Assembly: GCA_002255585.1 (NCBI GenBank)
Contig: NCBJ01000003.1
Span: forward strand, 21,571 to 85,570
Source of the DNA: Parcubacteria group bacterium 21-54-25
GTDB taxonomy: Bacteria; Patescibacteriota; Minisyncoccia; Phycocordibacterales; Phycocordibacteraceae
Reading direction: 5' to 3'
DNA: 64,000 nucleotides
This document shows, piece after piece, positions 14,119-62,679 of this stretch. Both the position numbers and the translations under genes were made by a program. Below the pieces are notes generated by a model. It was not told the DNA's origin. It was given only the letters and a program-made list of their open reading frames with translations, and ran no database searches. The number at the start of each line of letters is the position of its first letter. Within the stretch, counting starts at the first letter, position 1.

Positions 14119-14913
14119 ATGGAAAAACGGCCCGACGTTTCGCATGAGCGCAAGAAGGACTCGCGTGAGTCTGTGGCGGAAGGAGGGGTGCTTCGCATGG
14201 TAAGTGAATCTGTGCAGGACCTGATTATCGATGTGGAGAGAGGTCGCTCTGTTTCTCTGGAAACGCTGCAGCTTGTGCAGGCGCAGCTCGAGTACGCGCG
14301 CGAACAAGTCGCAAAACGAGAACAAGCTCTCGAAGAGGCCGAGCGCACTGCACACGAGCACCGCGAAGAAGCCACAAAAGATTCGTTGACCCATCTTTTC
14401 AACCGTCGCGGTTTCATGGAAGCCCTCAGTATGAAAATAGAACGCACGAAGGAATCGCCTACGGATCTGCTCTATGCTTTTTTTATCGATCTCGATAAGT
14501 TCAAATTTGTAAACGACACGTATGGGCACGAGATGGGTGATCGCTATTTAACAATAGTTACCGCACACTTACACAAAGCCCTGCGTCCGGACGATACTCT
14601 CGCGCGTTTCGGCGGTGACGAGTTCACTGCGCTATGTTTTGTGCGTTATAAAGGCGAACAGGCAGAAGAAAGTCACGATGTGGGAGCTTCTCACATAGCC
14701 CTCCGCATTCAATATGCCCTCGACGCTGCGCGTCAAGAATTGAACGAAGAAATTAAAAGAATATTTCCCGATGCTCCACTAGCACACGATGTCGGGAGCG
14801 TCGGATATGCTTTTTATGACCCCACCGAATCTGTCGACGCCGCAGCATTTATCAGGCAAGCTGATAGACGTATGTATGAACAAAAACAAAAAGACAGTGC
14901 TGACAAGCGCTGA
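14119..14913 (+). CDS. GGDEF-domain diguanylate cyclase with an N-terminal coiled-coil
   Basis: [27 protein letters not shown], and RFGGDEF motifs. Confidence 0.8.
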
Positions 14914-16507
14914 GGGATGGTGAGAGAGTATGGTATACCGATAGGGCACGTACGTGCATGGAGAGGTGGCTGAGCGGTCGAAGGCACCGCCTTGGAAAGG
15001 CGGCGTACGGGAAACTGTACCAAGGGTTCGAATCCCTTCCTCTCCGCAGAGTCGGACGGTCAGCACTTTTCGAGAAGCATAGGAAGGGCTTCTTGGCCTC
15101 AATGCTGAGGATCCTGCCCTTTAGAGTGGGGTTCGAACCGACCGTGCTTATGATTCGCCTCTTCAGCGCGTCATCGCCCTCGGTGTACCATTTCGCGGCC
15201 CTACTGCTAAACGAGATCAGAGCCTTGGCGGGTTCGAACCATTTGCCGTCGGAGTTCGATAGCGCTTCCTGAAGACGGGCTTGTTCTTGCTGGAGCGCGG
15301 CGCGTTGTGCCGTAAATTCCTCGTCCCCGATCAAATCTCGAATCCTCAGCGTCGTCAAATTTACGAGTGCTCTCCCCGCTTCATCAGCTGCATGCTGATG
15401 TGACGCCTTTTGCTGCGCAGACACCTCTTGCTCGGCTCTGCGTGCCTTCGCCACTTGCTCGATTCCCCAGATGTGTAGGGGATCCGGTATGCGTAGCGTG
15501 GCGAGAAACTCGCGAAAGGCTTGGTCGAGCTGGGCGGCCGACAAGGAGCGCTGCCGGCAGCGGTAATCGAGTCGACGCCTACTGCAGTGGTAGTACGTAT
15601 AATGCCGGCCGTGGCGGTTGACTTTGTGTTCTGCAGTGACCATGAAGCCGCATTCACCGCAGCGTATAAGGCCGGTAAAGGGAAAGGAGTGGCGGATCGA
15701 TTGCGGTTTCCCCGGCTTGGCGAGAAGTGCCCGCACGCGATCGTGCTCGTCGAGCGTAATCATTCGGGCGTGAGCGCCAGGGTAGATTTGTCCGCCCCAG
15801 ACGAGCACGCCCGCGTAGAACGAGTTGTGCAGGATTCGATGGATACCGCCAATGGTGAGATATTTCCCACCAATACGCTTATGCTGCCGGGTTCGCAGTC
15901 CCCACGCACGGGAATGCTCCATGAGGTCACGGAGTGAATAGGTCCCGGTGAGCGCTAGGTCGAAGAGCTTCCTCACCAAAGCGAATCGGTCAGGATCTTT
16001 GACGATTGTGCGTGACGCGGGGTCATTGAGATAGCCGATCGGCGCGCCGTTGGGGCGCCATCCACGGGCTACCTTTGCGCGATTTCCGCGCTTTACATTT
16101 TCGCTCAGGTTGTCCACGTAGTACTTCGAGTACCCGAAGATGATCGAGAGCATGAACTTCCCCTGGGAGTTGTTTTCGAAGCTGAACGTGGAGAACTTGA
16201 GGTCTTTAAGCGAGCGGCGGTCGAGGAGGTAGATGATCTTCCCGCCATCCACCGAATTGCGTGCCAGGCGATCTGGGTGCCACGTGATGATCCCGTCGGC
16301 TTCCCCGCGCTCAATCCGCTCGAGCATCACGTTGAATATCGGCCGCCCCGGGGCCTTCGCGCTATACGACTCCCGTAGGACTTCAACGACCTCCACTTCC
16401 GGGCGACCCTCAAACGCCCGTTTCAACTCCGCCTCTTGCGAGTCAATGGAAAGTACTTGGCGGTCTTCCGCTTCGCTGGATTTTCGGCAATACACAAAAT
16501 ATTTCAT
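14852..16507 (-). CDS. Large serine recombinase (resolvase/invertase-type catalytic domain plus recombinase, zinc-ribbon and coiled-coil domains). The true 3' end is uncertain because the ORF reads across tRNA-Ser on the opposite strand.
   Basis: N-terminal [19 protein letters not shown]...[13 protein letters not shown] catalytic-Ser domain. Cys cluster (CGECGF...YYHC). C-terminal tail contains GRDSNPW, which is the translation of the tRNA T-arm. Confidence 0.8.
14960..15046 (+). tRNA. tRNA-Ser (anticodon GGA), type II with a long variable arm. No CCA is encoded.
   Basis: Acceptor GGAGAGG/CCTCTCC, D arm GCTGAGCGGTCGAAGGC, anticodon stem CCGCC/GGCGG with loop TTGGAAA, variable stem GTAC/GTAC, T arm AAGGG-TTCGAAT-CCCTT. 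Confidence 0.8.
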
Positions 16508-16936
16508 AGGGTTGTGAGTAACGACGATTAAACAGTACCACGCTTCTGGCGACCGCCCGAGCCACGGGGTCGGGAGGGCGCGGCGACATGTACCCAGGCC
16601 AATCAAGGGAGGCGATCACCCCCCCGGGGGGGCGAGTGAGCGTGCAGAGCCTTTCCAGGGCGCATTTGTTGACGCAATTTGTAGCGGAGCCCGCACGGCA
16701 GTAGCGGGGCGGACGGTATAGCGCCGAAATCCAGATCCGTGCGATAGAGCGTACGGACCGTAACCCAAAGGAGCTAGGGAGGGACACGAGCCGCCCGGGT
16801 GCAATTCGCCCGTATCGGTTTGCCCGACGAGAGCGTATCCCCCGGCGGCCGGAAAACGCCGCGGGGCGGGAATACGGATGCCCTCGGCAGTGTACGGCGC
16901 CTTTCTCACGTTCGCTTCTCCAGGTACCGTGGCGGC

Positions 16937-19624: not shown

Positions 19625-20536
19625 ATGGATACCGACCGTTCTTTCAAGAAGTCCGACCTCTATGCCCGGGTGACCGACCACATCATCCAGGCGATCGAAG
19701 CGGGAGCCACGGACTATGTCATGCCCTGGCATGAGCAGTCCGGGGCGGGCCTCCCCCGAAACGCCTCGACCGGAAACCTCTACCACGGGGTCAACACCGT
19801 ATCGCTCTGGACAAGTGCGTCGCGCCACGGATACGGCGTGCCGTACTGGGCGACGCTCCGACAGTGGGGTGCGCTCGGGGCCCGCGTCCTGCGCGGCGAG
19901 AAAGCCTCGCTCGTGGTCTTCTACAAGCGGGAGGAGGCGCCGGCCGACACAGAAACGAGCGAGAGCGTGGGGAAGAGGCGGGGCGTTCTCCGGGCCTCCT
20001 TCGTCTTCAATGCCCTCCAGGTTGACGGTTGGTCGCCGCCGGTACCCGAGAAGACCGATCGCACCGAGCGGCTCCAGGCGGCAGACGACCTCATCGAGGC
20101 GCTCGGGGCCGAGATCCTCTACGGGAGCACCCGCGCCTGCTACAGCCCGACCCTCGACCGCATCTTTATGCCCGGGCGTCCCCAGTTCATTGATGGAAGC
20201 ACGAGCACCGCGACCGAAGGATTCTATTCGGTCTTGCTCCATGAGCACATTCATTGGTCGGGGTACCGCACGCGGCTCAATCGAGACCTCACGGGGCGCT
20301 TCGGCGATAGCGCCTACGCCATGGAGGAGCTCGTCGCAGAACTGGGCGCGGCGTTCCTCTGCGCCGAGCTTGGCATCGAAGATCACCCGCGGCACGACCA
20401 CGCCGCGTACGTGGCAAGCTGGCTGGAGGTCCTTCGCCGGCAGAAGTCGGCAATCTTCACGGCGGCCAGTACCGCAACGGCGGCTTGCCGCTACCTCTCG
20501 GAGGTGGCAAGCCGGGTGGCCCAATCGTCCCTGTGA
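19625..20536 (+). CDS. ardC: ArdC-like antirestriction protein (N-terminal ssDNA-binding DUF1738 domain plus C-terminal zinc metalloprotease)
   Basis: ArdC_N-like N-terminus (DLYARVTDHIIQAIEAG...MPW). C-terminal LLHEHIHWSGY HExxH motif. Confidence 0.75.
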   Translation: MDTDRSFKKSDLYARVTDHIIQAIEAGATDYVMPWHEQSGAGLPRNASTGNLYHGVNTVSLWTSASRHGYGVPYWATLRQWGALGARVLRGEKASLVVFYKREEAPADTETSESVGKRRGVLRASFVFNALQVDGWSPPVPEKTDRTERLQAADDLIEALGAEILYGSTRACYSPTLDRIFMPGRPQFIDGSTSTATEGFYSVLLHEHIHWSGYRTRLNRDLTGRFGDSAYAMEELVAELGAAFLCAELGIEDHPRHDHAAYVASWLEVLRRQKSAIFTAASTATAACRYLSEVASRVAQSSL

Positions 20537-22207: not shown

Positions 22208-23104
22208 TCACAACCAGTGCCGGAGTCCTAACAGCACCGCGCTAACCACTACCGTAACGAGAGCACCAATGACGGCGGCAAAAATCGCAATCTTAACAGT
22301 TCGGCGGTGATCTTTCTGTTGCTCCAACTGACCGAATCTGGATTCGATTTTGACGAAGTCTCGATGAAGGTCTTGGTCGCCGCTGACTCTAAGACTTTTT
22401 TCGTTCTCGAGACCGTCTGTTAGTTTCTTCACCTCTTCCTTCAGGGCCCGGATACCTTGCAACACATTTCCAAGGTCTTCCCTGAATTCCTTCTTCCAGT
22501 CGTCTTGCTCTCGGACCTCGTTCTTAAGAGAGGTAACTTCTTGTTGCGTAGCCCGGATGGCGTCTCGGAGCCCCTCTAGCCTGATCGGCTGATAGTTCTG
22601 CATGAGACGCACGACGTCGTCCGGGAAGTCCGAGATTGATTCCGGCTGAGGAAACGTATCGATCTCCCCCTCCTCAAGGACATAGAAGACGGCCGCGATG
22701 AGTTTTTTGCGCGGCCGTAATGGCCATCGTGTCGTTGAGAAGTTGTAAAGGCCGACGAGCAGATTCCCCCGGTAGAGCGGATCGATGAAAAATCCCCCGA
22801 GAACAAGGATCCCTTCGTGGCTGAGTTTCCGCTTGGGGCTCAGCATTGCAGCCATGGTGTTTGGCAGATTAAGGACTTCTTCCGTAAGGACAAACGCGAC
22901 TTCGCCTGGATCAATGAAGAGCGCGCTGCGCTGCGTCTCGGTTAGTTTCATCACATCAATCGGTCCACCTCCCGCTTTGAGGAGCCGATTGCCCATCCTA
23001 AGGTCGTACTTCGCTCCTTCTACGCACGTCTCCTCGCCGCCTCGAATGAAAGTTTGGTCCCGGACCGCCGCAAGAAGACGTTGTCCCGTGACTATTGTTG
23101 GCAT
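22208..23104 (-). CDS. dCTP deaminase/dUTPase-fold (Dcd-like) domain fused to a ~70-aa coiled-coil and a C-terminal transmembrane anchor
   Basis: GAKYDLRMGN...IDPGEVAFVLTEEVLNLP...SPKRKLSHEGILVLGGFFIDPLYRGNLLVGLYNFS is colinear with Dcd motifs. Then heptad-rich KNEVREQDDWKKEFREDLGNVLQGIRALKEEVKKL and a terminal hydrophobic helix. The start is moved to the ATG at 23104. Confidence 0.6.
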   Translation of the reverse strand: MPTIVTGQRLLAAVRDQTFIRGGEETCVEGAKYDLRMGNRLLKAGGGPIDVMKLTETQRSALFIDPGEVAFVLTEEVLNLPNTMAAMLSPKRKLSHEGILVLGGFFIDPLYRGNLLVGLYNFSTTRWPLRPRKKLIAAVFYVLEEGEIDTFPQPESISDFPDDVVRLMQNYQPIRLEGLRDAIRATQQEVTSLKNEVREQDDWKKEFREDLGNVLQGIRALKEEVKKLTDGLENEKSLRVSGDQDLHRDFVKIESRFGQLEQQKDHRRTVKIAIFAAVIGALVTVVVSAVLLGLRHWL

Positions 23105-23340
23105 TGTAATGGCGCCTCCCGTGTCTTGGACGTGCTGCGGAGTACCGTCGACCCGTCCATCGGTTTGTTTGCGTGGGGTCATGGCTTTTTCCTCCTTGTT
23201 GAACTGACCGGCAGAACACCACGAGAACCGTGCCGTGCTGCCGGCAGTTCGCAAGAAGAACCACCCCGCGATCTTTCCGCGTCAAAGAGCTACCCAAGAA
23301 CCAGTATATCAGGTAAAAAATTTCAGGAACGCAACCGGAC

Positions 23341-24530: not shown

Positions 24531-24800
24531 ATGACACCCAGCGAAATTGTAAATGTTCGGCGTGCCTTGGGGCTTTCCCAGGTTGAGTTTGCGCGCTTAT
24601 TGGACGTTCATTCTATGACCGTGAGTAAATGGGAGCGCGGCCTCGTTCCACCGACCCCATATCAGGTTGCACTTATGGACCAGTTTCGTCGCGCGACCCA
24701 AGCGCAACAGGCCAAGGTCGACGAGCAGCTAAAGCATCTGCTGGTCAGTGCCGGCGTCATAGCGGCCCTGTTTTTCCTCCTCAAATCCGCTAACGAGTGA
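24531..24800 (+). CDS. XRE-family HTH protein with a C-terminal transmembrane helix
   Basis: RRALGLSQVEFARLLDVHSMTVSKWERG HTH. C-terminal LLVSAGVIAALFFLL helix. Confidence 0.6.
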   Translation: MTPSEIVNVRRALGLSQVEFARLLDVHSMTVSKWERGLVPPTPYQVALMDQFRRATQAQQAKVDEQLKHLLVSAGVIAALFFLLKSANE

Positions 24801-24806
24801 GGCGGT

Positions 24807-25187
24807 ATGTCTCCATTTAACCCCTTCGCCATTCTTGTACTCTCCCGTCCAAAGCTCACCGGTCTCGGTGAACATTGGGGGGTCCGACTTCCCGATGGTC
24901 GCGTAGCGCATTGTATGCCTGTGATTGGGGTCTGCATTAGCTCATTTGAAGACTTTTCGGCAGGCAAGGACGTCGTGGTGCGACGTGAGGTGTCTCCGGC
25001 GCTACTTAGCGAAGTGTATCGTCGACTGAACGTGGCCCTTTTTTATCCGCGGCCATACGACTTGCTCTCGTGGAACTGCGAGAGCTTCGCGAACTGGCTA
25101 ACTTGTGGGGAGCCCGAAAGCGCGCAAGTCGCCGGCATCGGCATCCTTTTCTTCCTAACTTTAGTAGTGGCTGGGCTTTCCAGGTGA
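24807..25187 (+). CDS. LRAT/NlpC-P60-superfamily (H-box ... NCE-x-F catalytic Cys) domain protein with a C-terminal TM helix
   Basis: HWGV (His) and LSWNCESFANWL (catalytic Cys motif NCExF), as in LRAT/PPPDE-type domains. Confidence 0.45.
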   Translation: MSPFNPFAILVLSRPKLTGLGEHWGVRLPDGRVAHCMPVIGVCISSFEDFSAGKDVVVRREVSPALLSEVYRRLNVALFYPRPYDLLSWNCESFANWLTCGEPESAQVAGIGILFFLTLVVAGLSR

Positions 25188-28279: not shown

Positions 28280-28570
28280 ATGGTCAAAGTTCTCAGTCCT
28301 CTACAAATCGTGGGCCTGGTTTGGTTCTGCGCATCCATTATATTGGCGCTTAGCACCACAGTTTATTTCAGATTCTGGTTGCGTAGGCGCGACGTAAAGG
28401 TAATGCTGGGTTTGGCGGCGGTTCCCGGCTATCTAGAGATGCTCTATATGAAATGGTGTCGAGAACACTCGCAGAGCGGGACGGTAGTTCTTTCGCTCCG
28501 TTTCGTGCTGCTTGTTAATGTATTGTTGTCAGCACTGATCGTGGTTCCGTTTGTAATCATGAAAAATTGA
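28280..28570 (+). CDS. Small membrane protein (3 predicted TM helices) upstream of the SIR2-like gene
   Basis: 96 aa, hydrophobic, low-GC segment. Confidence 0.35.
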   Translation: MVKVLSPLQIVGLVWFCASIILALSTTVYFRFWLRRRDVKVMLGLAAVPGYLEMLYMKWCREHSQSGTVVLSLRFVLLVNVLLSALIVVPFVIMKN

Positions 28571-28716
28571 TGACTCGTGAATTATTTTTCACGGCTACCC
28601 AAAGACCCCTACCCCGTCGGCGTGGTTTGCGGCATTCAGCGGGATCCCATAGAAAAGAACGAGGCAAGAATATCACAATGCTGCATTATTTATGGCGTCG
28701 TGTTTAGAAACGCACT

Positions 28717-30486
28717 ATGGAAGACCCGCTCATGCAAATGCCCGTTGCCTCTACTGTCGAGTCGCAGAAAAACCAAGTCGCTTTCCTATTTGGCGCGGGG
28801 GCGTCAATGGAAGCGGGCGTTCCTGATACCGTGTCGCTAATCAACGAATTCCGTGTGAAAGATGACGATGCTAATGTCAGCGAATTTCTGGAACTGCTTG
28901 GCAGATGGGCTAAGCAGCAGGATCGTCCTCTTGATATAGAACTCGTCCTCGAAACACTCCAGCGTCTGGCCGACTGGAAAGAAGACCCGTTGTCAGGGTT
29001 TGCGGACAAACCAATCAAGATCGACGGGCTGGATGCCCAAACGCTTCTCAACCGACTACGGGATTTCATAAAAAATAAGGTCTTGGTCGATGCCGAGCAT
29101 ATTACCTATCTGGAACCGCTCCGCGGCTTCATCGACGCATACCGACCCCTCCATCTCTACTCCGCGAACTACGATACCGCTATCGAGGTGCTCTGCGCCG
29201 AGCACAAACTGAAATACCGGGACGGATTTGATGAGGCATGGAATCCCGCTCTCTTAGATGAGCCGAACGTTGATCTCCGTCTATTCAAGCTTCATGGCTC
29301 GGTGACGTGGTATCGAAGCAACCGTGGGCGATTTTTGAAAATCCCGGTCCTGCTCCACGACAGCTCCGTCGAATTGGTGACTAAGGAACGCGCTGAAGCC
29401 CTAATGCTTTACCCCGCACAGAAATTCGAGTATGTGGAGCCACTGTTTGAACTGTTGCTGGCCGCCAAGCGGCGGTTAGCGGAGAGTCAGGTGTTAATCG
29501 TGGTCGGCTACTCATTTCGGGACGAGCATATTCGTCAGTTGCTATGGGATATAGCCCGCGAATCGCCCAGGTTCATCGTCATTCTGATCGGACCCAAGGC
29601 ACGAGATATTTATCAAGAGCGACTCAAATGGTACGAACGAGACAGGATCCCCTCGGCGCTCCAGGGGCGGGTGCTCTGCCTCCCTTTTTTGTTCGGGAGG
29701 GTCTTTCCCGCGCTGCAACCGGAATTGTTACCACGGGTGCTCCAGTTTCGCGAGGACTTGGAGCAACAGTTAGCACAGGAGCGACGAGGTCATCCTGGGA
29801 TTTGGGAGGGTGCTGTGCTGAATGCGGCTCGCGGCGGAGATTACGAAGTAGTCCGCAGAATCCTAGAAAAGCCGCAGGTGTTAGCGCAACAGCTCAACTA
29901 TGCGCAACAATTTGATTGCCTGGTTCTAAGCCTTTTCCATGCGGCTGCAAACAGCGATGTTGTCGCAGGAAGATATTTCTGGGACAAGCTGCATGATACG
30001 TTGCGAGAGATCATTGACCGTATCACTCTCAACGTACAATTCGGCGGATCTTCCAGCTGGCTCGTAGTGTCCGTTAATAAAAACAACCGAAGCGAGAATT
30101 TTCAGAATCTTATCCGCGGGCTTGCGGCTCCGCATCAGGAGATAGATCGGCGGCGTCGGTGGATGGGTGATGCCGAGTCCTCATCAGAATACCTGCGGGC
30201 GGTGAATCGGGTCTTAACGGATCTACAGAGTGCGATGCAGATCTGGTCCAACGTAGGGCAAGTCGCGCCGAGCGACTATGCGGCAGCACGCCAACAGGAA
30301 ATTCCAGGGGATCTAAAGGGGGAGATTCTGGATAAACTTGATCGGTTGCGGGAAAAAAATTCCGAGTCCTGGTCGGACGTCGACGAGCGGCAACTAGAGC
30401 AGGGGCTCAGGGGAACCGAACAAGCCGTCATTAACAAGGTGTTTCAGGAGTTAGACCAGTTGTGGGGCGAGAATAGGGAATTGTAA
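28717..30486 (+). CDS. SIR2_2-family (defence-type sirtuin-like NADase fold) protein with a ~300-aa helical C-terminal domain
   Basis: VAFLFGAGASMEAGVP (Rossmann Gly-rich), LYSANYDTAIE (catalytic Asn), FKLHGSVTW (catalytic His), VVGYSFRDEHI, as in ThsA/DSR SIR2 domains. Confidence 0.75.
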   Translation: MEDPLMQMPVASTVESQKNQVAFLFGAGASMEAGVPDTVSLINEFRVKDDDANVSEFLELLGRWAKQQDRPLDIELVLETLQRLADWKEDPLSGFADKPIKIDGLDAQTLLNRLRDFIKNKVLVDAEHITYLEPLRGFIDAYRPLHLYSANYDTAIEVLCAEHKLKYRDGFDEAWNPALLDEPNVDLRLFKLHGSVTWYRSNRGRFLKIPVLLHDSSVELVTKERAEALMLYPAQKFEYVEPLFELLLAAKRRLAESQVLIVVGYSFRDEHIRQLLWDIARESPRFIVILIGPKARDIYQERLKWYERDRIPSALQGRVLCLPFLFGRVFPALQPELLPRVLQFREDLEQQLAQERRGHPGIWEGAVLNAARGGDYEVVRRILEKPQVLAQQLNYAQQFDCLVLSLFHAAANSDVVAGRYFWDKLHDTLREIIDRITLNVQFGGSSSWLVVSVNKNNRSENFQNLIRGLAAPHQEIDRRRRWMGDAESSSEYLRAVNRVLTDLQSAMQIWSNVGQVAPSDYAAARQQEIPGDLKGEILDKLDRLREKNSESWSDVDERQLEQGLRGTEQAVINKVFQELDQLWGENREL

Positions 30487-30859
30487 CGCTTCCGTCACCT
30501 GTAGGAACGCGGAGCTCGAAGCGATGCCGAGGAAGGCCAGTTTGGGCTGGAAGGCATCGTTCAGGTACGGCGAACCATGGTCATGAGGTAAGGACGGACC
30601 GTCGGTTCTTTCCTCGGCAAAGTCGTCAACGCACAAGTTCCTGCCCGGGGAGGACCGATCACAGGATCTCGATTGGGCAGTCGCCGTGTCAGTGTTGATG
30701 CGAGTGGGGATGTTGCCGGGATCGGACGGGATTGCATCACAATCCCATCACAGTCACCGAGTGATGGATCCGGTAACATCCTGAAAAATAATGTGATGGA
30801 ATGTGATGAAAACCGCCCCAACCAGATCGACTAAAAACTACTTAACTGCTTGTTTAAAT

Positions 30860-30891
30860 TGGCGCCCCGGTCAGGATTCGAACCTGAGACC
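30860..30891 (-). other. Partial tRNA 3' end (T arm plus acceptor 3' strand plus CCA). It is a putative att site remnant next to the tyrosine integrase.
   Basis: The minus strand reads GGTCTCAGG-TTCGAAT-CCTGACC-GGGGCG-CCA. No matching 5' half is present upstream. Confidence 0.5.
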
Positions 30892-30986
30892 TTCCCCTTA
30901 GGAGTGGAAAGGTCGCTGTGCAACCTATTGAACTCGTGATGGATAAATGGCACCATCACAAAACCATCACACGAGAACCGGCACTC

Positions 30987-31997
30987 ATGGCCACCTTCCG
31001 GAAAATGGCATCCGGCCACTGGCAAGCGATCGTGCGGCGCAAGGGCTACCCGCACGCCGCGCGTACCTTCCGCACCAAGGCGCTCGCAGAGCGCTGGGCA
31101 CGCGGTATCGAGAACAGCATCGACGAGGGCGAGTATGCGGCCGCCTCCCGCATATCCGTTGGCGAACTTCTCGCTCGCTACGAGGAGCGCTTCACGCCAG
31201 CCAAGCGATCCCGCGTGAAGGAGAGGTCCCGAATCAAGACACTGACCCGGCACCTCGGCGAACTGCCGCTCTCCGTCCTCACGCCAGAGGCCATCGTCTC
31301 CTACATTGAGGACCGGTTGGAAGAGGTGGCTTCCGATACAGCGCGCAAGGAGCTGCACACGCTCTCCGTCATCGTGGACACCGGCATGGCGCTTTGGGAG
31401 ATCGGCCTGCGCGTGAATCCGGTGGTGGTCGCCAAGGCCATCCTGCACGCCACGAAACTCCTCAAGCCCGGGGTGAAGCGCGAGCGCCGGCCGACCCCCA
31501 AGGAGCTTGCGGCACTGGCGAAATCGAGCCACTGGCCGCTGTGGGAGTATGCCATCGAGACGGCCATGCGCCGCGGCGAGATCGCAGTGCAGCGGCGCGA
31601 ACACCGATCCGGAAACGTGCTGCATATTCCGCAGACGAAGACCGACCAGCCCCGTACCATTCCTCTGTCGCGGCGGGCCATGGAGATCCTCGACGGCCTG
31701 CTGGAGCGCGGCGACGGCGCGGTTTGGGGCATTACGGCCGACGCCATGACCCGCGCGTTCGCGCGCGAGTGCCGGGCGGCCAACATCGCCGACCTGCGCC
31801 TGCACGACCTGCGGCACGAAGGAACGTCACGGCTGTTCGAGAAGGGATGGACCATCCCGCAGGTGGCGGCGGTCACCGGCCATTCGGACTGGTCCTCCCT
31901 GAAGCGCTACACCAAGCTGAACCCGTCGCGGCTGGCGGCGAAGCTGGGTCGACGTGGCAAACGCCGCCAGGCCCGGGCCGACCTCTCGGATGGTTAA
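30987..31997 (+). CDS. int: Tyrosine recombinase/phage-type integrase
   Basis: C-terminal LHDLRHEGTSRLFEKGWTIPQVAAVTGHSDWSSLKRYTKL (R...HxxR...Y catalytic box). N-terminal SAM-like arm. Adjacent to the tRNA fragment. Confidence 0.85.
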   Translation: MATFRKMASGHWQAIVRRKGYPHAARTFRTKALAERWARGIENSIDEGEYAAASRISVGELLARYEERFTPAKRSRVKERSRIKTLTRHLGELPLSVLTPEAIVSYIEDRLEEVASDTARKELHTLSVIVDTGMALWEIGLRVNPVVVAKAILHATKLLKPGVKRERRPTPKELAALAKSSHWPLWEYAIETAMRRGEIAVQRREHRSGNVLHIPQTKTDQPRTIPLSRRAMEILDGLLERGDGAVWGITADAMTRAFARECRAANIADLRLHDLRHEGTSRLFEKGWTIPQVAAVTGHSDWSSLKRYTKLNPSRLAAKLGRRGKRRQARADLSDG

Positions 31998-32226: not shown

Positions 32227-33399
32227 ATGAACAACACCGAGGATTCGAATTGGTTCGATGACTACGCCGAGGGTGTAGATGACCTCCAAGTCGAGGAGTA
32301 CGACATAACGGCTTCTCCAAACGATTTCAATGTCATGACCCTTCATAGCTTCGTTGAGTCTGGAGCAGTACGCATCCCTGGCTTTCAGCGCAACTTCGTT
32401 TGGGACCTCGGGCGAGCGTCAAAACTCATAGAATCCCTGATCCTGGGTTTGCCGGTGCCGCAGCTCTTCCTCTACGAGCAGGCACGCAACAGGTTCCTGG
32501 TTATCGACGGACAACAACGGCTCATGTCCATCTACTACTTCATCAAGAAACGCTTCCCTCGGAAGGAGAAGCGGGTTGAGCTTCGCGCGATCTTCGATCG
32601 TGAGGGCCGGATTCCTGACGAGATACTTCATGAAGATGAGTACTTCCAGACCTTCAACTTAAGGCTACCGGAGCGGCTGCCAAATCACGAGAACAAGTTC
32701 AAGGGCCTGAACTATGCAACACTCGGCGAATACAAGGCGCAGTTTGATCTTAGGCCAATCCGGAACATAGTGGTGAAGCAGAATGCTCCTTCAGGAGATG
32801 ATTCATCAATGTATGAGGTCTTCAACCGACTCAATTCTGGCGGCATCAACCTGCGGCCGCAGGAGATCCGCACCAGCATGTATCATTCTGCATTCTATGA
32901 AATGCTGTACCACATCAACGCGGAGCCGGGGTGGCGGAAGATACTGCAGTGGTCTGAACCGGACCTACATATGAAGGACATCGAGATCCTTCTGCGCGGT
33001 TTCGCTATGCTCATCGATGGCGAGCACTACGCGCCATCGATGGTGAAGTTCCTGAATCAGTTCTCAAAGAAATGCGAAACGCACGATGCACAGCAGAACA
33101 CCTATCTCCGTGATCTGTTCTTTTCGTTCCTCGGCGCGTGTCACGATCTTCCGGACGACGCGTTCGTGAACAAGAAGAACAAGCGGTTCAATATCGCTCT
33201 TTTCGAGGCTATCTTCTCGGCCTCATGCGAACGCGCATTCGGCGAACGACGCCCGGTCGCGGGTGAACTACAGCGTGAGGCCATCGAAGCGCTCGAGACA
33301 GATGAGGAGTTTCTCGAAGCGGCACTTGAAGGAACAACGCGAACGGTCAATGTACAGAAACGCCTCAGCCGAGCACGGGAAATCGTGGGCGCAATGTAG
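32227..33399 (+). CDS. DUF262 (ParB-like/GmrSD N-terminal-type) domain protein
   Basis: IPGFQRNFVWDLGRASKLIESLILGLPVPQLFLYE...FLVIDGQQRL (DGQQR motif). Confidence 0.8.
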   Translation: MNNTEDSNWFDDYAEGVDDLQVEEYDITASPNDFNVMTLHSFVESGAVRIPGFQRNFVWDLGRASKLIESLILGLPVPQLFLYEQARNRFLVIDGQQRLMSIYYFIKKRFPRKEKRVELRAIFDREGRIPDEILHEDEYFQTFNLRLPERLPNHENKFKGLNYATLGEYKAQFDLRPIRNIVVKQNAPSGDDSSMYEVFNRLNSGGINLRPQEIRTSMYHSAFYEMLYHINAEPGWRKILQWSEPDLHMKDIEILLRGFAMLIDGEHYAPSMVKFLNQFSKKCETHDAQQNTYLRDLFFSFLGACHDLPDDAFVNKKNKRFNIALFEAIFSASCERAFGERRPVAGELQREAIEALETDEEFLEAALEGTTRTVNVQKRLSRAREIVGAM

Positions 33400-33404
33400 G
33401 GAAA

Positions 33405-33974
33405 GTGGAGATGAGCCCAACCGTTGTCGACCGTCTACACGGTGAGTATTCTGCCCTCCTTGAGCTCCCCCAACTCGCCGGAGAGCCCTCCCTGCGCAGT
33501 GCCGCTGACGATAGTTTCCGCAAGGCGTTGCTGATGGCCGCTGCGAGCCACTTCGAGCAGCGCATGACTGATGCAGTACTCCAGTTCACAGCAGAAGCAA
33601 CGGCTAACAATCATGTCCTGACGTGGCTTGTAAGGAACCGTGTGGTCAGGAGGCAATATCACACGTGGTTCGATTGGGATGGGAAGAACGCCAACAGCTT
33701 CTTTGGGATGTTCGGCGACGAGTTTCGCAAGGCCATGAATGCTTCTGTCGCTCAGGATGACGACATTAAGGCATCCATTCAGGCGTTTTTGGAAGTCGGT
33801 CGCGAGCGAAATCGTCTGGTCCACCAGGATTTTGGGAGCTTCACGCTGGAAAAGACCTCGGAAGAGATCTATATACTCTATGGAACGGCGCTTCGCTTCG
33901 TTGATTGGTTCCCGGGAGCAATCAAGAGGTACGATGGTGAGCAGAGTTTGACGACAGAAAGCTCGGACGGATGA
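33405..33974 (+). CDS. HEPN-like (Rx4-6H) domain protein. It is the partner of the DUF262 gene, separated by a 5-nt gap.
   Basis: A conserved RERNRLVHQDF (R-x4-H) motif near the C-terminus with a helical context. The assignment is tentative. Confidence 0.4.
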   Translation: MEMSPTVVDRLHGEYSALLELPQLAGEPSLRSAADDSFRKALLMAAASHFEQRMTDAVLQFTAEATANNHVLTWLVRNRVVRRQYHTWFDWDGKNANSFFGMFGDEFRKAMNASVAQDDDIKASIQAFLEVGRERNRLVHQDFGSFTLEKTSEEIYILYGTALRFVDWFPGAIKRYDGEQSLTTESSDG

Positions 33975-35155: not shown

Positions 35156-37216
35156 GTGTCCTCGAACTGGCGGAATTGGTTTCGGACGCCCGGGGCCCTC
35201 GGGGAGGCGAAGGACACCGAGCGGCTATACGCTGAGGTGCAGGAGGCCTCCGCGCGATCCCCCCTTGCCGATGAGCATGCCCTGGACACGTTCCTGCTCG
35301 AATTGATCGATGAGATCTGCGCCCGGCACGACCTCACCCCCTCCATACCCCTCGGCGAGGCCCTCTGGGCCGCGATCCGGGGCCTCCTCTATGCCGAGGG
35401 CTTCCTCCTCGACCTGCCCGACCGGGCGTCGCTTGCACGGCTCACGGTGGAGGAGGGCGTGCTCCTGCGCGCCGCCCTTACGCGCCACCTGCGGTTCCTC
35501 ACCGACCATGCGCGCCTCCTTTCCATCTGGCGCGAGAAGCTCGTCTGGCTCTTCTCCGGCATCCTGGGATCCCTCCCGGTATCGGCCCTCCGGGAACCCA
35601 CGGAGGGCGCAGATGACACTCTGGTGTTCCCAGAGGCCCCGATCGCCGCGCTCCTGGAGAACCTGCCGGAGGCCCTCGACCGCACCATCGCGACCTTCTT
35701 CGACGAGGACATCGCAAACGCCCACCTCTTCGAGCGGATGCGGGAGCGCCTGGAGGACAACGCCCTTGTCGCCTCCGGCATCCCGCGGGAGCGCGGGAAC
35801 GCCCCCTCGGGCAAGGCCCTGCTCCCGAGCGAACGCCACGACAAGTCGGGTGACTACCTGGTCGAGGCATACTTCCGCGGGACCCCGCTCCTCGACTTCT
35901 TCCGGAGCCCTCTCCCGTTTGCCATCCCCGCGCCGGTACGCCTTGAGCACATGCATATCCTCGGCGGTACCGGACACGGCAAGACCCAGTTGATCCAGTA
36001 CCTCCTCACGAGGGAGCAGGGCGGGTTCTGCGTCATCGATTCCCAGGGCGACATGATCGAGAAGATCGCCAGGCGCTTTCCGGACGTGATCCTCCTTGAC
36101 CCCACGGACGTGGCCCATCCGCTTGCCCTCAACATGTTCGACATGAAGACCAAGGACGAGGCGGAGTTGAACGCCACCATCGCCCTCTACGAGTACATCT
36201 TCAGCGGTCTGTTGGGCGCCGAGCTCACCCAGCGGCAGAGCCTCCTCTTCGGGTCGATCGCTCGCCTCATGCTCCTGGTCCCTGACGCGACCATCCATAC
36301 GCTGATCGACGTCATGGAGCATGGGGAGCGGTTCAAGCCGTACATGGAGCGCCTCGGCGGCACCGCCGCCCGGTTCTTCGAGGAGCAGTTCTTCCAGAAG
36401 TCGTTCCAGGCCAACAAGCAACAGATCCTTGCCCGCCTCTATGGCGTCCTGGAGAACCGGACCTTCGACCGGATCTTCTCGGCACCCAGGAACAAGATCG
36501 ACTTCTTCGAGGCGATGAACGCGGGCAAGATCGTGCTCGTCAACACCGCCAAGTCGTTCTTCCAGGCGGAGCGCTCCTCGATCTTCGGCCGGTTCGTGAT
36601 CGCGATGATCGCGCAGGCCGCAGTCCGGCGGGCGTCCATCCCTGAGTCGAAACGCACCCCCTGGTTCGTCTACATCGACGAGTTCCACGAGTACGTGCGC
36701 GGTGGTGACCGCCAGGTTGAGGACCTCTTCAACCAGGCGCGCAAGTACCGGGTGGGACTCATCTGCTCACACCAGAACCTGGGCCAGCTCGAGGACAAGC
36801 TCCGGGCCACCATCATGGCCTCGACCGCGATCAAGATCGCGGGCGGCGTCTCGGCCAAGGATGCGCAGTTCCTCGCCCAGGAGATGCGCTGCCAGAAGGA
36901 GGCGATCCTGAATACCCGCAAGCGCGAGCGCGGCGCCGAGTGGATCTGCGCGGTGCGCAACCTCGGCACCCAGAAGGTGACCTGCCCGTTCGGAGCGCTC
37001 GAAGCCATGCCCGAGCGCCCCGACTATGATGCATTCCTCGAAGAGAACCGCCGCCGGTATGCGATGCAGCCCGAAGAGCGCACCAAGCACCACGAGGAAG
37101 AGCAAGTACAACCGCGGGAGAGCGAATCAAAATCAGCAACAGGATCAGGTGGGCAAAAACCAGTACAACCGGACCAACGGGAACGGGATGATTCGAATGA
37201 CGACATCTGGGGATAG
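35156..37216 (+). CDS. Type IV coupling protein-like (TraD/TraG/VirD4-family) P-loop ATPase
   Basis: Walker A HILGGTGHGKTQL, Walker B FVYIDEFHEY, SHQNLGQL motif, acidic C-terminal tail. GTG start. Confidence 0.55.
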   Translation: MSSNWRNWFRTPGALGEAKDTERLYAEVQEASARSPLADEHALDTFLLELIDEICARHDLTPSIPLGEALWAAIRGLLYAEGFLLDLPDRASLARLTVEEGVLLRAALTRHLRFLTDHARLLSIWREKLVWLFSGILGSLPVSALREPTEGADDTLVFPEAPIAALLENLPEALDRTIATFFDEDIANAHLFERMRERLEDNALVASGIPRERGNAPSGKALLPSERHDKSGDYLVEAYFRGTPLLDFFRSPLPFAIPAPVRLEHMHILGGTGHGKTQLIQYLLTREQGGFCVIDSQGDMIEKIARRFPDVILLDPTDVAHPLALNMFDMKTKDEAELNATIALYEYIFSGLLGAELTQRQSLLFGSIARLMLLVPDATIHTLIDVMEHGERFKPYMERLGGTAARFFEEQFFQKSFQANKQQILARLYGVLENRTFDRIFSAPRNKIDFFEAMNAGKIVLVNTAKSFFQAERSSIFGRFVIAMIAQAAVRRASIPESKRTPWFVYIDEFHEYVRGGDRQVEDLFNQARKYRVGLICSHQNLGQLEDKLRATIMASTAIKIAGGVSAKDAQFLAQEMRCQKEAILNTRKRERGAEWICAVRNLGTQKVTCPFGALEAMPERPDYDAFLEENRRRYAMQPEERTKHHEEEQVQPRESESKSATGSGGQKPVQPDQRERDDSNDDIWG

Positions 37217-41418: not shown

Positions 41419-42630
41419 TTATTGTCCCAAAGTGCCGCCAGCCTCAAGCTCCCCGGGATGAAGCGTCCGGGCGCTAAAGGGCCGCGAGGGTGTCCCGTCG
41501 ATCATAAGGCGCAGGTATATATGGTGGTTGGGGAGGTTCACGAGATCCTCCGTGGAGAACGTCGGCGCGAACTCCCGGGCAAGGAATGGCGCGTCGTGGG
41601 GCCCCACCCGAAAGGAGATCACCGTGCCCACGTTCCCCAAGACTGCGTGACGGATCTCCGGCGCAAGCTGGTCGAGGTACTGGTGCACAAGCACCATGCC
41701 GACCCCGTACTTCCTGAGTTCCGAGGCCATGGTGACCAGGGCGAGCGTGGTGAAGTGCTGGAACTCGTCGAGATAGAGGAAGAAAGGGCGGCGCTCGCGC
41801 TCCGGCACCTCCGCCCGGCTAAAGGCCGCAAGCCCGATCGTGGTCACGAGGAGACCCCCAAGGAGGTGCGCTGCGTCCTCGCCAAGCCTTCCTTTTGAGA
41901 GGTTCACAAGGAGGACGACGCCGCCCTCGTCCATGAGCCGCCGGACCCCGATCGGTTTCTCGGGAGCGCAGAGAATCCGACGAAGGGTCGGATCGGCGAG
42001 AAACGCCCCCACCTTGTTCTGGATCGGGGCGATCGCCTCGGAGCGCATCCGGGGCGTATATCGCTCGTATTCGCGAAGCAGGAACTCGGCCACCTGCGGG
42101 TTCGTCGTGGTCCGCCCCACCCGACGCCGGAATTCGCGTTCGTCAAGCAGCCGGGGCAGGTCGAGGAGTGTTGCGTCCGGATAGTCCAGGAGCGCGAGGA
42201 GCGCGTTGCGGAGGATGTGCTCCATCCTGGGGCCCCAGGCGTCTTCCCACATCTTCTTGAACACCTCAAGCATCCCGGCGGCCGCAAGCGGCCGCTTCTC
42301 GGGCGCCACCTGTTTGAGAGGATTGTATCCATAGGGCTGATGCGGATCCGGAGCGTCCATGTATATGCACGTCTCCCGGCGGGCCGGGGGAACCTGAGCC
42401 GCAAGTCGCTCGACGAGATCGCCGTGGGGGTCAAGGAGAGCGAGTCCACGGCCCGCAGCGAGATCCTGGCGGATGAGCGTCTCTAGGAGCGTGCTCTTTC
42501 CGGTTCCGGTTTGACCGATCGCGTACAGGTGCAGCAACCGATCACGCTCTTTGATGCCAAAGCGGGTACGCTGGTTGCGGAAGTCGGTTTTGGCGAGGTA
42601 CGTAACCTGATGTCTTTCAGTGCGGGGCAT
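41419..42630 (-). CDS. T4SS coupling-protein-like/HerA-FtsK-like P-loop ATPase (TraD/TraG_D_C-type), shorter paralog of the family seen at 35156..37216
   Basis: Walker A YAIGQTGTGKSTLL, Walker B FFLYLDEFQHF, LVHQYLDQL motif. It lies in an isolated GC-rich 1.2-kb patch. Confidence 0.55.
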   Translation of the reverse strand: MPRTERHQVTYLAKTDFRNQRTRFGIKERDRLLHLYAIGQTGTGKSTLLETLIRQDLAAGRGLALLDPHGDLVERLAAQVPPARRETCIYMDAPDPHQPYGYNPLKQVAPEKRPLAAAGMLEVFKKMWEDAWGPRMEHILRNALLALLDYPDATLLDLPRLLDEREFRRRVGRTTTNPQVAEFLLREYERYTPRMRSEAIAPIQNKVGAFLADPTLRRILCAPEKPIGVRRLMDEGGVVLLVNLSKGRLGEDAAHLLGGLLVTTIGLAAFSRAEVPERERRPFFLYLDEFQHFTTLALVTMASELRKYGVGMVLVHQYLDQLAPEIRHAVLGNVGTVISFRVGPHDAPFLAREFAPTFSTEDLVNLPNHHIYLRLMIDGTPSRPFSARTLHPGELEAGGTLGQ

Positions 42631-62400: not shown

Positions 62401-62679
62401 CCGCTCGGTGGCAAGGCACAAAATGGCGGACAACGTTTTGGAGAAATGGAGGTATGGGCACTGTTGGGTTATGGCGCAGCGTATATGCTGCGCGAGATGC
62501 TCACCATCAAGTCAGACGACATTCAAGGCCGCTCCGCTGCCTTCGACGCGATCGTGAAAGGAGACCCGATCAGCCACACCGGCACCCCGGCTTCATTCTC
62601 TGTCCTTACTAATCAAATACGCGGTCTCGCGCTCGACGTCGAGCCGGTAGAACTTCCGCCTGGCGCTGAAGTCGAATAA
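59500..62679 (+). CDS. rpoB: DNA-directed RNA polymerase subunit beta
   Basis: 1059 aa with canonical rpoB blocks (e.g. [21 protein letters not shown]). Confidence 0.97.

What the first reader, a model, noticed from the sequence alone, without database searches (positions are those of the whole stretch)
28280..30486. Stand-alone SIR2_2-family protein (589 aa) with a small upstream membrane protein, adjacent to the R-M system
The N-terminal ~280 aa carry the defence-type sirtuin signature (GAGAS...NYD...KLHGS...GYSFRD) found in ThsA/DSR/SIR2-HerA NADase effectors. The C-terminal ~300 aa are helical and unassigned. No SLOG, HerA, pAgo or STAND partner is present. A 96-aa 3-TM protein lies 146 nt upstream in the same orientation. 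It could be a single-protein (or two-gene) NAD-depletion abortive-infection system with an unknown sensor domain.
Basis: partly seen in the sequence, partly recalled or inferred. Interest (0 to 1): 0.6.

Follow-up and report, generated by a model that had tools for sequence, protein, structure and literature searches.

The report
Stand-alone SIR2 enzyme with private tail domain
This is an intact gene for a probable NAD-destroying "suicide" immunity enzyme fused to a tail domain that resembles nothing known; it sits among other anti-phage genes on a mobile element, belongs to a rare uncharacterised family found in bacteria and archaea, and appears unconnected to the small membrane gene next to it.

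Summary
There is a 96-aa hydrophobic ORF at 28280-28570 and a 589-aa SIR2_2 protein at 28717-30486 (likelier start 28732, 584 aa), directly downstream of an XhoI-type R-M pair.

The SIR2 half (aa 1-320) is intact. GAGxS, the catalytic N146/D148/H188 and GYSFRD are invariant in 38 homologues and align to the catalytic N163/D165/H212 of PsSIR2. Its closest solved relatives are the SIR2 subunits of SIR2-HerA.

The C-terminal half (aa 321-584) folds confidently (pLDDT 91). It matches nothing in Pfam, in PDB by sequence or fold, or in a viral structure library. A profile of it finds only 246 clusters among 1.84 billion representatives, all with this same architecture.

No neighbouring gene is conserved across about 35 loci. 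The small membrane ORF is an orphan: its only hit in 5.8 billion proteins is itself. The two-gene reading is therefore not supported.

Close relatives repeatedly sit on conjugative or integrative elements next to R-M, GmrSD, HEPN or Abi genes.

Best reading: a single-protein, DSR-like NADase abortive-infection effector with a fast-evolving private sensor/regulatory domain. It does not meet the membership tests run for DSR2, ThsA, SIR2-HerA, SPARSA or Avs5 (DSR1 and Kongming only partly testable). Function is inferred, not shown. I rate it a new variant of a known kind, of moderate interest.

The parts
28732..30486 (+). Gene for the SIR2-CTD protein (584 aa from the likely start; the longest ORF starts at 28717 and gives 589 aa)
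   Evidence: ORF list and translation. A 100% identical 584-aa protein, P0001, is called on the public contig DAICZD010000003.1. It aligns end to end with homologues of 570-600 aa.
28732..29691 (+). N-terminal SIR2_2 (Rossmann) domain, aa 1-320, with a helical 'small domain' insert at about aa 33-136 and no CxxC zinc-ribbon cysteines
   Evidence: Pfam SIR2_2 9e-12. PADLOC SIR2 and Aga_SIR2 models about 1e-24, covering aa 13-300. AF2 model with pLDDT 85 and pTM 0.85. Foldseek best hits are the SIR2 subunits of SIR2-HerA (8sub, 8wld, 8w9l; E about 2e-7, TM 0.5-0.58 normalised to the target).
28792..28806 (+). GAGAS NAD-binding glycine-rich loop (G21-S25 in 584-aa numbering)
   Evidence: G21, A22, G23 and S25 are invariant in 38 family members. 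Codons read directly from the sequence.
29167..29175 (+). N146-Y147-D148, putative catalytic Asn and Asp
   Evidence: Invariant in 38 sequences. They align to N163 and D165 of PsSIR2 (8w9l) in the phmmer alignment; these are named as putative catalytic residues in PMC11472057.
29293..29295 (+). H188, putative catalytic His of the KLHGS motif
   Evidence: Invariant. Aligns to H212 of PsSIR2. It is the counterpart of DSR2 H171, whose mutation abolishes defence (bioRxiv 10.1101/2021.12.14.472415).
29692..30483 (+). Family-specific C-terminal domain (aa 321-584): helical bundle with long helices plus a three-stranded antiparallel sheet (aa about 431-456). Proposed sensor/regulatory domain.
   Evidence: AF2 model of the domain alone: pLDDT 91, pTM 0.88. 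No Pfam family. No PDB match by sequence profile or by Foldseek against PDB (best E 0.16) or BFVD (best E 0.19). The profile finds only 246 representatives in 1.84e9, all in the same architecture. Mean pairwise identity is 21%, against 51% for the SIR2 half.
28280..28570 (+). Orphan 96-aa hydrophobic ORF, 146 nt upstream on the same strand. Listed because the finding includes it; a functional link to the SIR2 gene is not supported.
   Evidence: Its only hit in 5.8e9 proteins is an identical copy from the same organism. No family hit in Pfam, PADLOC, NCBIfam or PHROGs. Codon statistics weakly favour its frame over the other five, and GC1/2/3 = 0.52/0.34/0.56, so it may be a real gene. It is absent from the homologous loci.

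Best explanation
The gene encodes a stand-alone, single-polypeptide SIR2-type NAD+ hydrolase that is cargo of a defence cluster on an integrative mobile element.

Proposed mechanism, by analogy with DSR1/DSR2, ThsA, Avs5 and SIR2-HerA. In uninfected cells the SIR2 active site is kept closed, probably by its own helical small domain and/or by the C-terminal domain. On infection, the fast-evolving family-specific C-terminal domain binds a trigger, most likely a phage protein and less likely a small molecule or nucleic acid. This changes the conformation or oligomeric state and opens the N146/D148/H188 site. NAD+ is then hydrolysed, and the infected cell stops growing or dies before the phage completes its cycle.

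Shown here: the gene, its intact and invariant catalytic motifs, the fold, the exclusivity and rapid divergence of the C-terminal domain, the lack of any conserved partner gene, and the mobile/defence genomic context.

Inferred, not shown: NADase activity, autoinhibition, what the trigger is, oligomerisation, and anti-phage function itself.

The upstream 96-aa membrane ORF is treated as an unrelated orphan neighbour.
For: 1. SIR2_2 domain with invariant GAGxS, S-x-NYD, K-x-HGS and GYSFRD motifs in 38 homologues. N, D and H align with the catalytic N163/D165/H212 of PsSIR2.
2. The closest solved folds are all anti-phage SIR2 NADases: SIR2-HerA (E about 2e-7), DSR2 (2e-3) and SPARSA (5e-3). Canonical deacylase sirtuins come later (E >= 1e-2).
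3. There is no canonical-sirtuin Pfam hit and no zinc-ribbon cysteines. The NCBIfam deacylase models score only about 13-20 bits against cut-offs of 221-252.
4. The architecture is fixed and self-contained. The C-terminal profile hits only proteins of about 560-660 aa, with the domain at about 310-590, or N-truncated fragments of them.
5. The effector half is conserved (51% mean identity) and the C-terminal half is divergent (21%; entropy 2.2-3.2 bits against 0.7-1.8). This is the pattern expected of effector plus sensor under an arms race.
6. No neighbour is conserved in all-against-all clustering of ORFs within +/-6 kb in 39 loci (the window plus 38 fetched; about 35 carry a near-full-length gene). 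No PADLOC or Pfam family occurs in more than 6 of 141 flanking ORFs.
8. Distribution is patchy across Proteobacteria, Nitrospirota, Chloroflexota, Methanoperedens, Bathyarchaeia, Thermoplasmata and Nitrososphaeria, at 31-48% identity (61% for one truncated gene).
Against: - No activity or phage-resistance data exist for any member. I found none in the literature searches.
- Defence association is by neighbourhood only and was not tested against a background rate.
- In Methanoperedens-type genomes the gene sits in a stable position among housekeeping genes such as RsmB and an ABC transporter. That is less typical of mobile defence cargo.
- No family member was found on 72,556 plasmids or 50,697 phage genomes.
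- The sensor role of the C-terminal domain is purely an analogy. It could equally be only an oligomerisation or scaffold domain.
Confidence: 0.55

Rival explanations
1. It is a two-gene system. The upstream 96-aa membrane protein works with the SIR2 protein, for example as a membrane anchor or sensor or as a second, pore-forming effector.
For: The two ORFs share a strand and lie 146 nt apart. The pair occurs on both contigs that carry this exact gene. The ORF shows a weak coding signal in its own frame. Small membrane effectors do exist in other defence systems (general knowledge).
Against: The ORF's only hit in 5.8 billion proteins is itself. It hits no family. None of about 35 homologous loci has a similar or consistently placed small hydrophobic ORF. 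The 57-60% identical relative P0003 has a soluble, unrelated protein upstream. P0007, P0039, P0004 and P0037 have different neighbours. The two contigs with the pair appear to be the same organism, so they are not independent evidence.
Confidence: 0.06
2. It is not an immune gene. The protein could be a regulatory sirtuin-like enzyme (a protein deacylase or ADP-ribosyltransferase acting on a cellular or mobile-element target), or a toxin/addiction function that stabilises the mobile element.
For: SIR2-fold enzymes include deacylases and ADP-ribosyltransferases (general knowledge). In Methanoperedens-type genomes the gene is syntenic among housekeeping genes. Many copies sit on conjugative or integrative elements, where maintenance functions are also common.
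Against: The domain belongs to SIR2_2, not the canonical sirtuin family, and lacks the zinc module. Deacylase models score far below their cut-offs. The nearest structures are anti-phage NADases. The rapid divergence of the C-terminal half and the rarity and patchiness of the family fit conflict genes better than housekeeping regulators. No adjacent antitoxin-like gene is conserved.
Confidence: 0.2
3. It is the effector of a multi-gene system whose partner is unlinked or variable. Examples would be activation in trans by a signal-producing enzyme (as ThsB, KomA or a cyclase does), or functional coupling to the adjacent R-M system.
For: Several SIR2 effectors depend on partners: ThsA on ThsB, KomC on KomA/B, SIR2 on HerA, and SIR2-APAZ on pAgo (papers listed). 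R-M genes lie next to the gene in the window and next to P0039. R-M-type hits (type I, IIG, MADS) recur among flanking ORFs.
Against: No partner family recurs; the maximum is 6 of 141 flanking ORFs, and those are methyltransferase-like. No SLOG, SAVED, CARF or other known ligand-sensor domain was detected in the C-terminal half. The fixed two-domain architecture, with a private domain, is what stand-alone sensors such as DSR2 look like.
Confidence: 0.12

Closest known systems
DSR1/DSR2 (defence-associated sirtuins; single-protein SIR2 NADase systems)
   Same: One polypeptide with an N-terminal SIR2 domain carrying catalytic Asn and His, plus a non-enzymatic C-terminal region. In DSR2 that region senses a phage protein. 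No partner gene is needed. This is the system it most likely works like.
   Different: It has about 585 aa, against chains of 900-plus residues in the DSR2 structure (932 residues in 8wy9). DSR2's C-terminal domain is an alpha-solenoid (abstract of PMC11850899). Here the tail is a compact ~265-aa bundle with a small sheet. It gives no Foldseek or profile match to any PDB chain, and DSR2 entries are in that library (8wy9 appears). The full-length match to DSR2 is weak (E 2e-3, TM 0.19-0.29). No PADLOC model named Dsr is among the listed hits.
SIR2 subunit of SIR2-HerA (Nezha)
   Same: It is the closest SIR2 fold and sequence. Foldseek gives E about 2e-7 and TM up to 0.58 normalised to the target. 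The family profile hits 8j4u and 8w9l at about 2e-7. The N/D/H residues are shared, and so is a helical small domain, which autoinhibits PsSIR2.
   Different: There is no adjacent HerA gene. The NCBIfam SIR2_antiphage model scores 40 bits against a cut-off of 500. This protein carries an extra 265-aa C-terminal domain that those ~380-415-aa SIR2 subunits lack.
SIR2-APAZ of short pAgo systems (SPARSA)
   Same: The best PADLOC hits are Aga_SIR2 models (E about 1e-24), over the SIR2 region. Foldseek hits 8jl0 at 5e-3.
   Different: No pAgo gene lies in the neighbourhood. The C-terminal half does not match APAZ or any PDB chain. The PADLOC match covers the SIR2 part only.
Thoeris ThsA (SIR2-SLOG)
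   Same: A SIR2 NADase effector with a C-terminal regulatory domain.
   Different: No SLOG domain was detected. No TIR (ThsB) gene was found among the neighbours scanned.
Avs5 (SIR2-STAND)
   Same: An N-terminal SIR2 effector fused to a sensor in one protein.
   Different: No NTPase/NOD domain was found by Pfam or PADLOC. No Walker A-type motif is visible in the sequence. The protein is far shorter.

Membership tests
Pfam SIR2_2 (PF13289) superfamily of non-canonical SIR2 domains | Match to the family model above the gathering score | tested here: met
   45.7 bits against a cut-off of 24.5, E = 9e-12, aa 147-287.
Pfam SIR2_2 (PF13289) superfamily of non-canonical SIR2 domains | Intact NAD-binding and catalytic motifs (GAGxS, N-x-D, H) | tested here: met
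   Invariant in 38 homologues. They align to N163/D165/H212 of PsSIR2.
DSR2 | Full-length similarity, including the MID and alpha-solenoid C-terminal domain that binds the tail tube protein | tested here: not met
   The full-length model against 8wy9 gives E 2.3e-3 and TM 0.29/0.19. The C-terminal model and profile give no PDB hit at E < 0.1. The length is 584 aa, against 932 residues in the 8wy9 chain.
DSR1 | Similarity to the DSR1 protein or model | tested here: inconclusive
   None of the 25 listed PADLOC hits is a Dsr model, and the 4 unlisted hits have E above 2e-3. I had no DSR1 sequence for a direct comparison.
DSR1/DSR2 | Phage-triggered NAD+ depletion and protection by the single gene | not testable with these tools
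   Needs experiments.
SIR2-HerA (Nezha) | Adjacent HerA-type ATPase gene in the same operon | tested here: not met
   The neighbours are the XhoI endonuclease, an orphan ORF and a tyrosine integrase. The only proteins with a DUF87-like region are TrwB-type coupling proteins 4.7 kb and 11 kb away.
SIR2-HerA (Nezha) | NCBIfam SIR2_antiphage (NF042942) equivalog score | tested here: not met
   40.2 bits against a cut-off of 500.
Thoeris type I (ThsA/ThsB) | SLOG domain C-terminal to SIR2, and a TIR-domain ThsB gene nearby | tested here: not met
   No SLOG or TIR hit in Pfam or PADLOC for the protein or its neighbours. The C-terminal fold has no PDB match.
SPARSA (short pAgo + SIR2-APAZ) | APAZ region and an adjacent pAgo gene | tested here: not met
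   The Aga_SIR2 models match only the SIR2 part, aa 16-298. No pAgo was found among the neighbours.
Avs5 / SIR2-STAND | Central STAND NTPase (NOD) domain | tested here: not met
   No NTPase family in Pfam or PADLOC.
Kongming (KomA/KomB/KomC) | SIR2 protein encoded together with KomA and KomB | tested here: inconclusive
   The listed PADLOC and Pfam hits of the flanking genes are R-M, integrase, GmrSD and HEPN only. PADLOC-DB v2.0.0 (2023) may predate the Kongming models, so their absence is not decisive.

The most novel reading that the evidence does not exclude
The ~265-aa C-terminal domain could be a previously unseen class of infection sensor. The SIR2-CTD family, about 250 sequence clusters spread across Proteobacteria, Nitrospirota, Chloroflexota and many archaeal lineages (Methanoperedens, Bathyarchaeia, Thermoplasmata, Nitrososphaeria), would then be a new single-gene NAD-depletion immune system that works in both bacteria and archaea. 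Here it is carried on a mobile element of a genome that its source labels as Parcubacteria.
Probability: 0.4. Interest if true: 0.55.

Novelty: new variant of a known kind. Interest (0 to 1): 0.4.

Why it matters
SIR2 NADases are among the most common abortive-infection effectors, but what each one senses depends on the domain attached to it.

This family pairs a well-conserved SIR2 effector with a confidently folded domain that has no detectable relative and occurs nowhere else. It is found mostly in uncultivated bacteria and archaea, where few defence systems have been tested.

If it is active, it would add a compact (~585 aa) single-gene system and a new sensor fold to the catalogue. It would also give a handle on NAD-depletion immunity in archaea.

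It would not change the general picture of how SIR2 defence works.

Tried and rejected
- **Family scans of the C-terminal domain.** Pfam at E <= 1 gave only sub-threshold noise: DUF5601, DUF2281 and HdcB, at 12-15 bits. PHROGs gave nothing.
- **Conserved partner.** All-against-all BLAST clustering of flanking ORFs in 39 loci gave only fragments of the SIR2 gene itself, local synteny between near-identical contigs, and Methanoperedens RsmB synteny.
- **Recurring small hydrophobic ORF next to homologues.** None was consistent.
- **Homologues of the 96-aa ORF.** Only itself.
- **Repeats flanking the ORF pair as a possible mini-element.** Only short chance-level matches.
- **Promoter and terminator scan, 27.8-31 kb.** No more sites than in shuffled sequence, and none usefully placed.
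- **Rfam scan, 27.9-31.1 kb.** Nothing in the intergenic regions except a sub-threshold tRNA-like remnant.
- **tblastn against plasmids and phages.** Only distant SIR2-domain hits (~24% identity) on plasmids, and none on phages.
- **Literature searches for this architecture.** Nothing specific.
- **Considered and rejected as family assignments:** DSR2, ThsA, SIR2-HerA, SPARSA and Avs5 (see the membership table).
Full report
**1. What is in the sequence**

A 96-aa ORF runs from 28280 to 28570 and a 589-aa ORF from 28717 to 30486. Both are on the + strand and are separated by 146 nt.

The window is identical to the public contig DAICZD010000003.1 of assembly GCA_027311325.1. Gene callers there start the large gene at the second Met (28732, 584 aa). 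That start has a purine-rich GGAAGA stretch 7-12 nt upstream. I use 584-aa numbering below.

**2. The N-terminal half is an intact defence-type SIR2 domain**

Family scans:
- Pfam SIR2_2 matches at E = 9e-12, above its cut-off.
- PADLOC models named SIR2 and Aga_SIR2 match aa ~13-300 at E about 1e-24.
- The canonical deacylase models of NCBIfam touch only the glycine loop, scoring 13-20 bits against cut-offs of 221-252.

A search of 5.8 billion proteins returned 613 relatives. Most full-length ones are 560-620 aa.

In an alignment of 38 of them the following are invariant: G21-A-G-x-S25, D68, E70, S144-x-N146-Y-D148, D164-G-F, W170-N171, K186-x-H188-G-S190, Y227-P228, K231 and G259-Y-x-F-R-D264; S261 is nearly invariant (at least 90%).

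In the phmmer alignment to PsSIR2 (PDB 8w9l), N146, D148 and H188 fall on N163, D165 and H212. The structural paper on that protein names these as the putative catalytic residues (PMC11472057). The equivalent Asn and His of DSR2 (N133, H171) are required for defence (bioRxiv 10.1101/2021.12.14.472415).

An AlphaFold2 model built on the 38-sequence alignment is confident (mean pLDDT 85, pTM 0.85). Its best Foldseek matches in the PDB, in order:

| Match | E-value | Note |
|---|---|---|
| SIR2 subunits of SIR2-HerA (8sub, 8wld, 8w9l) | about 2e-7 | TM 0.5-0.58 per target |
| DSR2 (8wy9) | 2e-3 | |
| Human FAM118B (9r3e) | 4e-3 | |
| SPARSA (8jl0) | 5e-3 | |
| Classical sirtuins | 1e-2 or weaker | |

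**3. The C-terminal half is a private domain**

Residues 321-584 were modelled on their own with the family alignment. They give pLDDT 91 and pTM 0.88. The fold is a bundle with several long helices plus a three-stranded antiparallel sheet around aa 431-456.

It matches nothing I could search:
- no Pfam family;
- no PHROG;
- no PDB chain by sequence profile;
- no Foldseek hit with E < 0.1 in the PDB or in the BFVD viral structure library.

I then searched a profile of the C-terminal domain alone (23 sequences) against 1.84 billion representative proteins. It found only 246 hits at E <= 1e-3. Every full-length hit is a 560-660-aa protein with the domain at about residues 310-590. Nearly all of the shorter hits I inspected still carry the tail of the SIR2 domain (VVGYSFRD, NYD and so on) and are truncated gene calls; a few begin at or just before the CLPY motif.

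The domain therefore appears confined to this one architecture. I found no case of it attached to another effector.

**4. Conserved effector, divergent tail**

| | SIR2 half | C-terminal half |
|---|---|---|
| Mean pairwise identity | 51% | 21% |
| Column entropy, bits | 0.7-1.8 in the core | 2.2-3.2 throughout |

Entropy in the C-terminal half peaks over the sheet and the following helices (aa 436-495). This is the pattern seen in defence proteins where a conserved effector is fused to a target-recognition module. It is suggestive, not proof.

**5. No conserved partner, and the small ORF is an orphan**

I fetched 79 loci from species-representative genomes. About 35 carry full-length or nearly full-length family members, at 31-48% identity (61% for one truncated gene). 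They come from Proteobacteria, Dehalococcoidia, Zixibacteria, KSB1, Methanoperedens, Halobacteriota, Methanotrichaceae, Nitrososphaeria, Bathyarchaeia, Thermoplasmata and ANME-1.

All-against-all comparison of every ORF within +/-6 kb of the gene found no family shared by more than a handful of loci. The exceptions were fragments of the SIR2 gene itself and local synteny. Among 141 flanking ORFs, the most frequent PADLOC or Pfam family occurs 6 times.

The 96-aa ORF has exactly one hit in 5.8 billion proteins: an identical copy from the same organism. It matches no family. No equivalent small hydrophobic ORF recurs next to the homologues. The relative P0003 (57-60% identical) has a soluble, unrelated protein upstream.

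Codon statistics weakly favour the ORF's own frame. This contrasts with two other ORFs of similar length in the same intergenic region, which show no frame preference. It may therefore be a real gene, but nothing links it to the SIR2 protein.

**6. Genomic context**

The window has one tRNA, tRNA-Ser(GGA), at 14960-15047. To its right lies a ~28-kb stretch of raised GC content that carries mobile-element genes:
- a large serine recombinase (14852-16606, − strand);
- ArdC (19625-20536);
- two RadC genes;
- a TrwB-type coupling protein (35156-37216);
- a Replic_Relax relaxase;
- a second coupling-type ATPase (41419-42630, − strand).

The cargo in between reads as a defence cluster:
- a dCTP-deaminase-like gene;
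- an HTH plus LRAT-like pair;
- the XhoI-type R-M pair;
- the orphan ORF and the SIR2-CTD gene;
- a tyrosine integrase (30918-31997);
- a GmrSD_N protein (PADLOC NsnA 7.5e-59, PD-T4-2_A 4.9e-38) with a RiboL-PSP HEPN protein.

Closer relatives show the same kind of setting:

| Relative | Context |
|---|---|
| P0007 | On a T4BSS element 4.4 kb from a GmrSD_N gene |
| P0004 | Near an integrase, transposases and HEPN_AbiU2 |
| P0037 | Among DDE transposases |
| P0082 | On a Dehalogenimonas element with an integrase and ArdC |
| P0049 | Next to an AbiJ_NTD4 protein |
| P0065 (Methanoperedens) | Among housekeeping genes, next to the same RsmB-like gene as in two other Methanoperedens-type loci |

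No family member was found on 72,556 plasmids or 50,697 phage genomes. Only distant SIR2 domains appeared.

**7. Interpretation**

The best-supported reading is a stand-alone SIR2 NADase of the DSR kind: a conserved NAD-hydrolysing effector fused to a private, rapidly diverging domain that senses infection or controls assembly.

By analogy with PsSIR2, where the helical small domain blocks the NAD pocket, and with DSR2, ThsA and Avs5, I propose autoinhibition that is relieved by trigger binding and/or oligomerisation. NAD+ collapse and abortive infection would follow.

The anatomy, conservation, exclusivity and context are shown. Activity, trigger, oligomeric state and the immune phenotype are inferred.

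Rival readings are:
- a two-gene system with the membrane ORF (disfavoured);
- a non-immune regulatory or addiction role;
- dependence on an unlinked or variable partner.

**8. Comparison with known systems, and novelty**

It works most like DSR1/DSR2 but is not a member of DSR2. Its SIR2 domain is closest to that of SIR2-HerA, but HerA is absent and the equivalog model fails. It also fails the defining features of ThsA, SPARSA and Avs5 (see the membership table).

I found no paper describing this architecture, although the searchable library is incomplete.

I therefore rate it a new variant of a known kind. It is interesting for its unmatched C-terminal fold and its archaeal and bacterial spread, but it is not surprising in principle, and it remains untested.

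Noticed in passing
window 30858-30934 (-) and 30918-31997 (+): A tRNA-like remnant ending in CCA abuts the start of a tyrosine integrase gene. Rfam tRNA scores 20 bits against a gathering score of 29, ARAGORN does not call it, and the 25-nt 3' end is unique in the window. It looks like an att/attP relic, so the 3' flank of the SIR2 gene is a junction between mobile modules.
   Followed up: partly
window ~15050-43000: This is a large integrative mobile element beside tRNA-Ser(GGA) at 14960-15047. It carries a serine recombinase (14852-16606, -), ArdC, two RadC genes, a TrwB-type coupling protein, a Replic_Relax relaxase, a replication-initiator-like gene, a 3'-5' exonuclease and a second coupling-type ATPase (41419-42630, -). 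Its GC content is 0.58-0.67, against about 0.52-0.55 outside. I did not map the right-hand boundary.
   Followed up: partly
window 32227-33399 and 33405-33974 (+): This looks like a second defence module of two genes. The first is a GmrSD_N/DUF262 protein (PADLOC NsnA 7.5e-59, PD-T4-2_A 4.9e-38). It is immediately followed by a RiboL-PSP HEPN protein (Pfam 2.9e-14).
   Followed up: partly
window 22208-23254 (-): A dCTP-deaminase-like protein (Pfam DCD 1.4e-9) has a ~150-aa C-terminal extension. The extension gives only weak PADLOC hits (LeoC 2e-4, LmuB/HerA about 7e-3). It may be a nucleotide-depletion defence gene of unusual architecture.
   Followed up: no
window 24531-24800 and 24807-25187 (+): An HTH_3 (Xre-type) gene is followed by an LRAT/NlpC-P60-like gene, directly upstream of the XhoI-type R-M pair. 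They could be an R-M controller, a toxin-antitoxin-like pair, or unrelated.
   Followed up: no
whole window; RpoB at 59500-62679: The identical small ORF is labelled by its source as coming from 'Parcubacteria group bacterium 21-54-25' (taxid 1970248). The RpoB encoded in the window is only 1059 aa. If the host really is a CPR bacterium, a conjugative-type element with a four-module defence cluster would be notable. I did not verify host identity.
   Followed up: no
L006, L009, L010 (Methanoperedens-type loci); L088: In these genomes the SIR2-CTD gene occupies the same chromosomal position, next to an RsmB-like methyltransferase gene and among housekeeping genes. In bacterial relatives it sits in mobile-element contexts instead.
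   Followed up: partly
window 29299-29451 (aa ~190-240 of the SIR2 protein): A beta-hairpin region of the SIR2 domain is strongly conserved in sequence (W193, K203, L215, E219, Y227-P228 and K231 are invariant) but is the least confident part of the model (pLDDT 52-62). It may be a mobile gating or oligomerisation element.
   Followed up: no
L026 and L049 (same Thermoplasmata contig JBEKEY010000029.1): A family member and a second, distant SIR2_2 gene (~27% identity) lie on one 41.7-kb contig. This suggests a SIR2-rich defence region in that archaeon.
   Followed up: no
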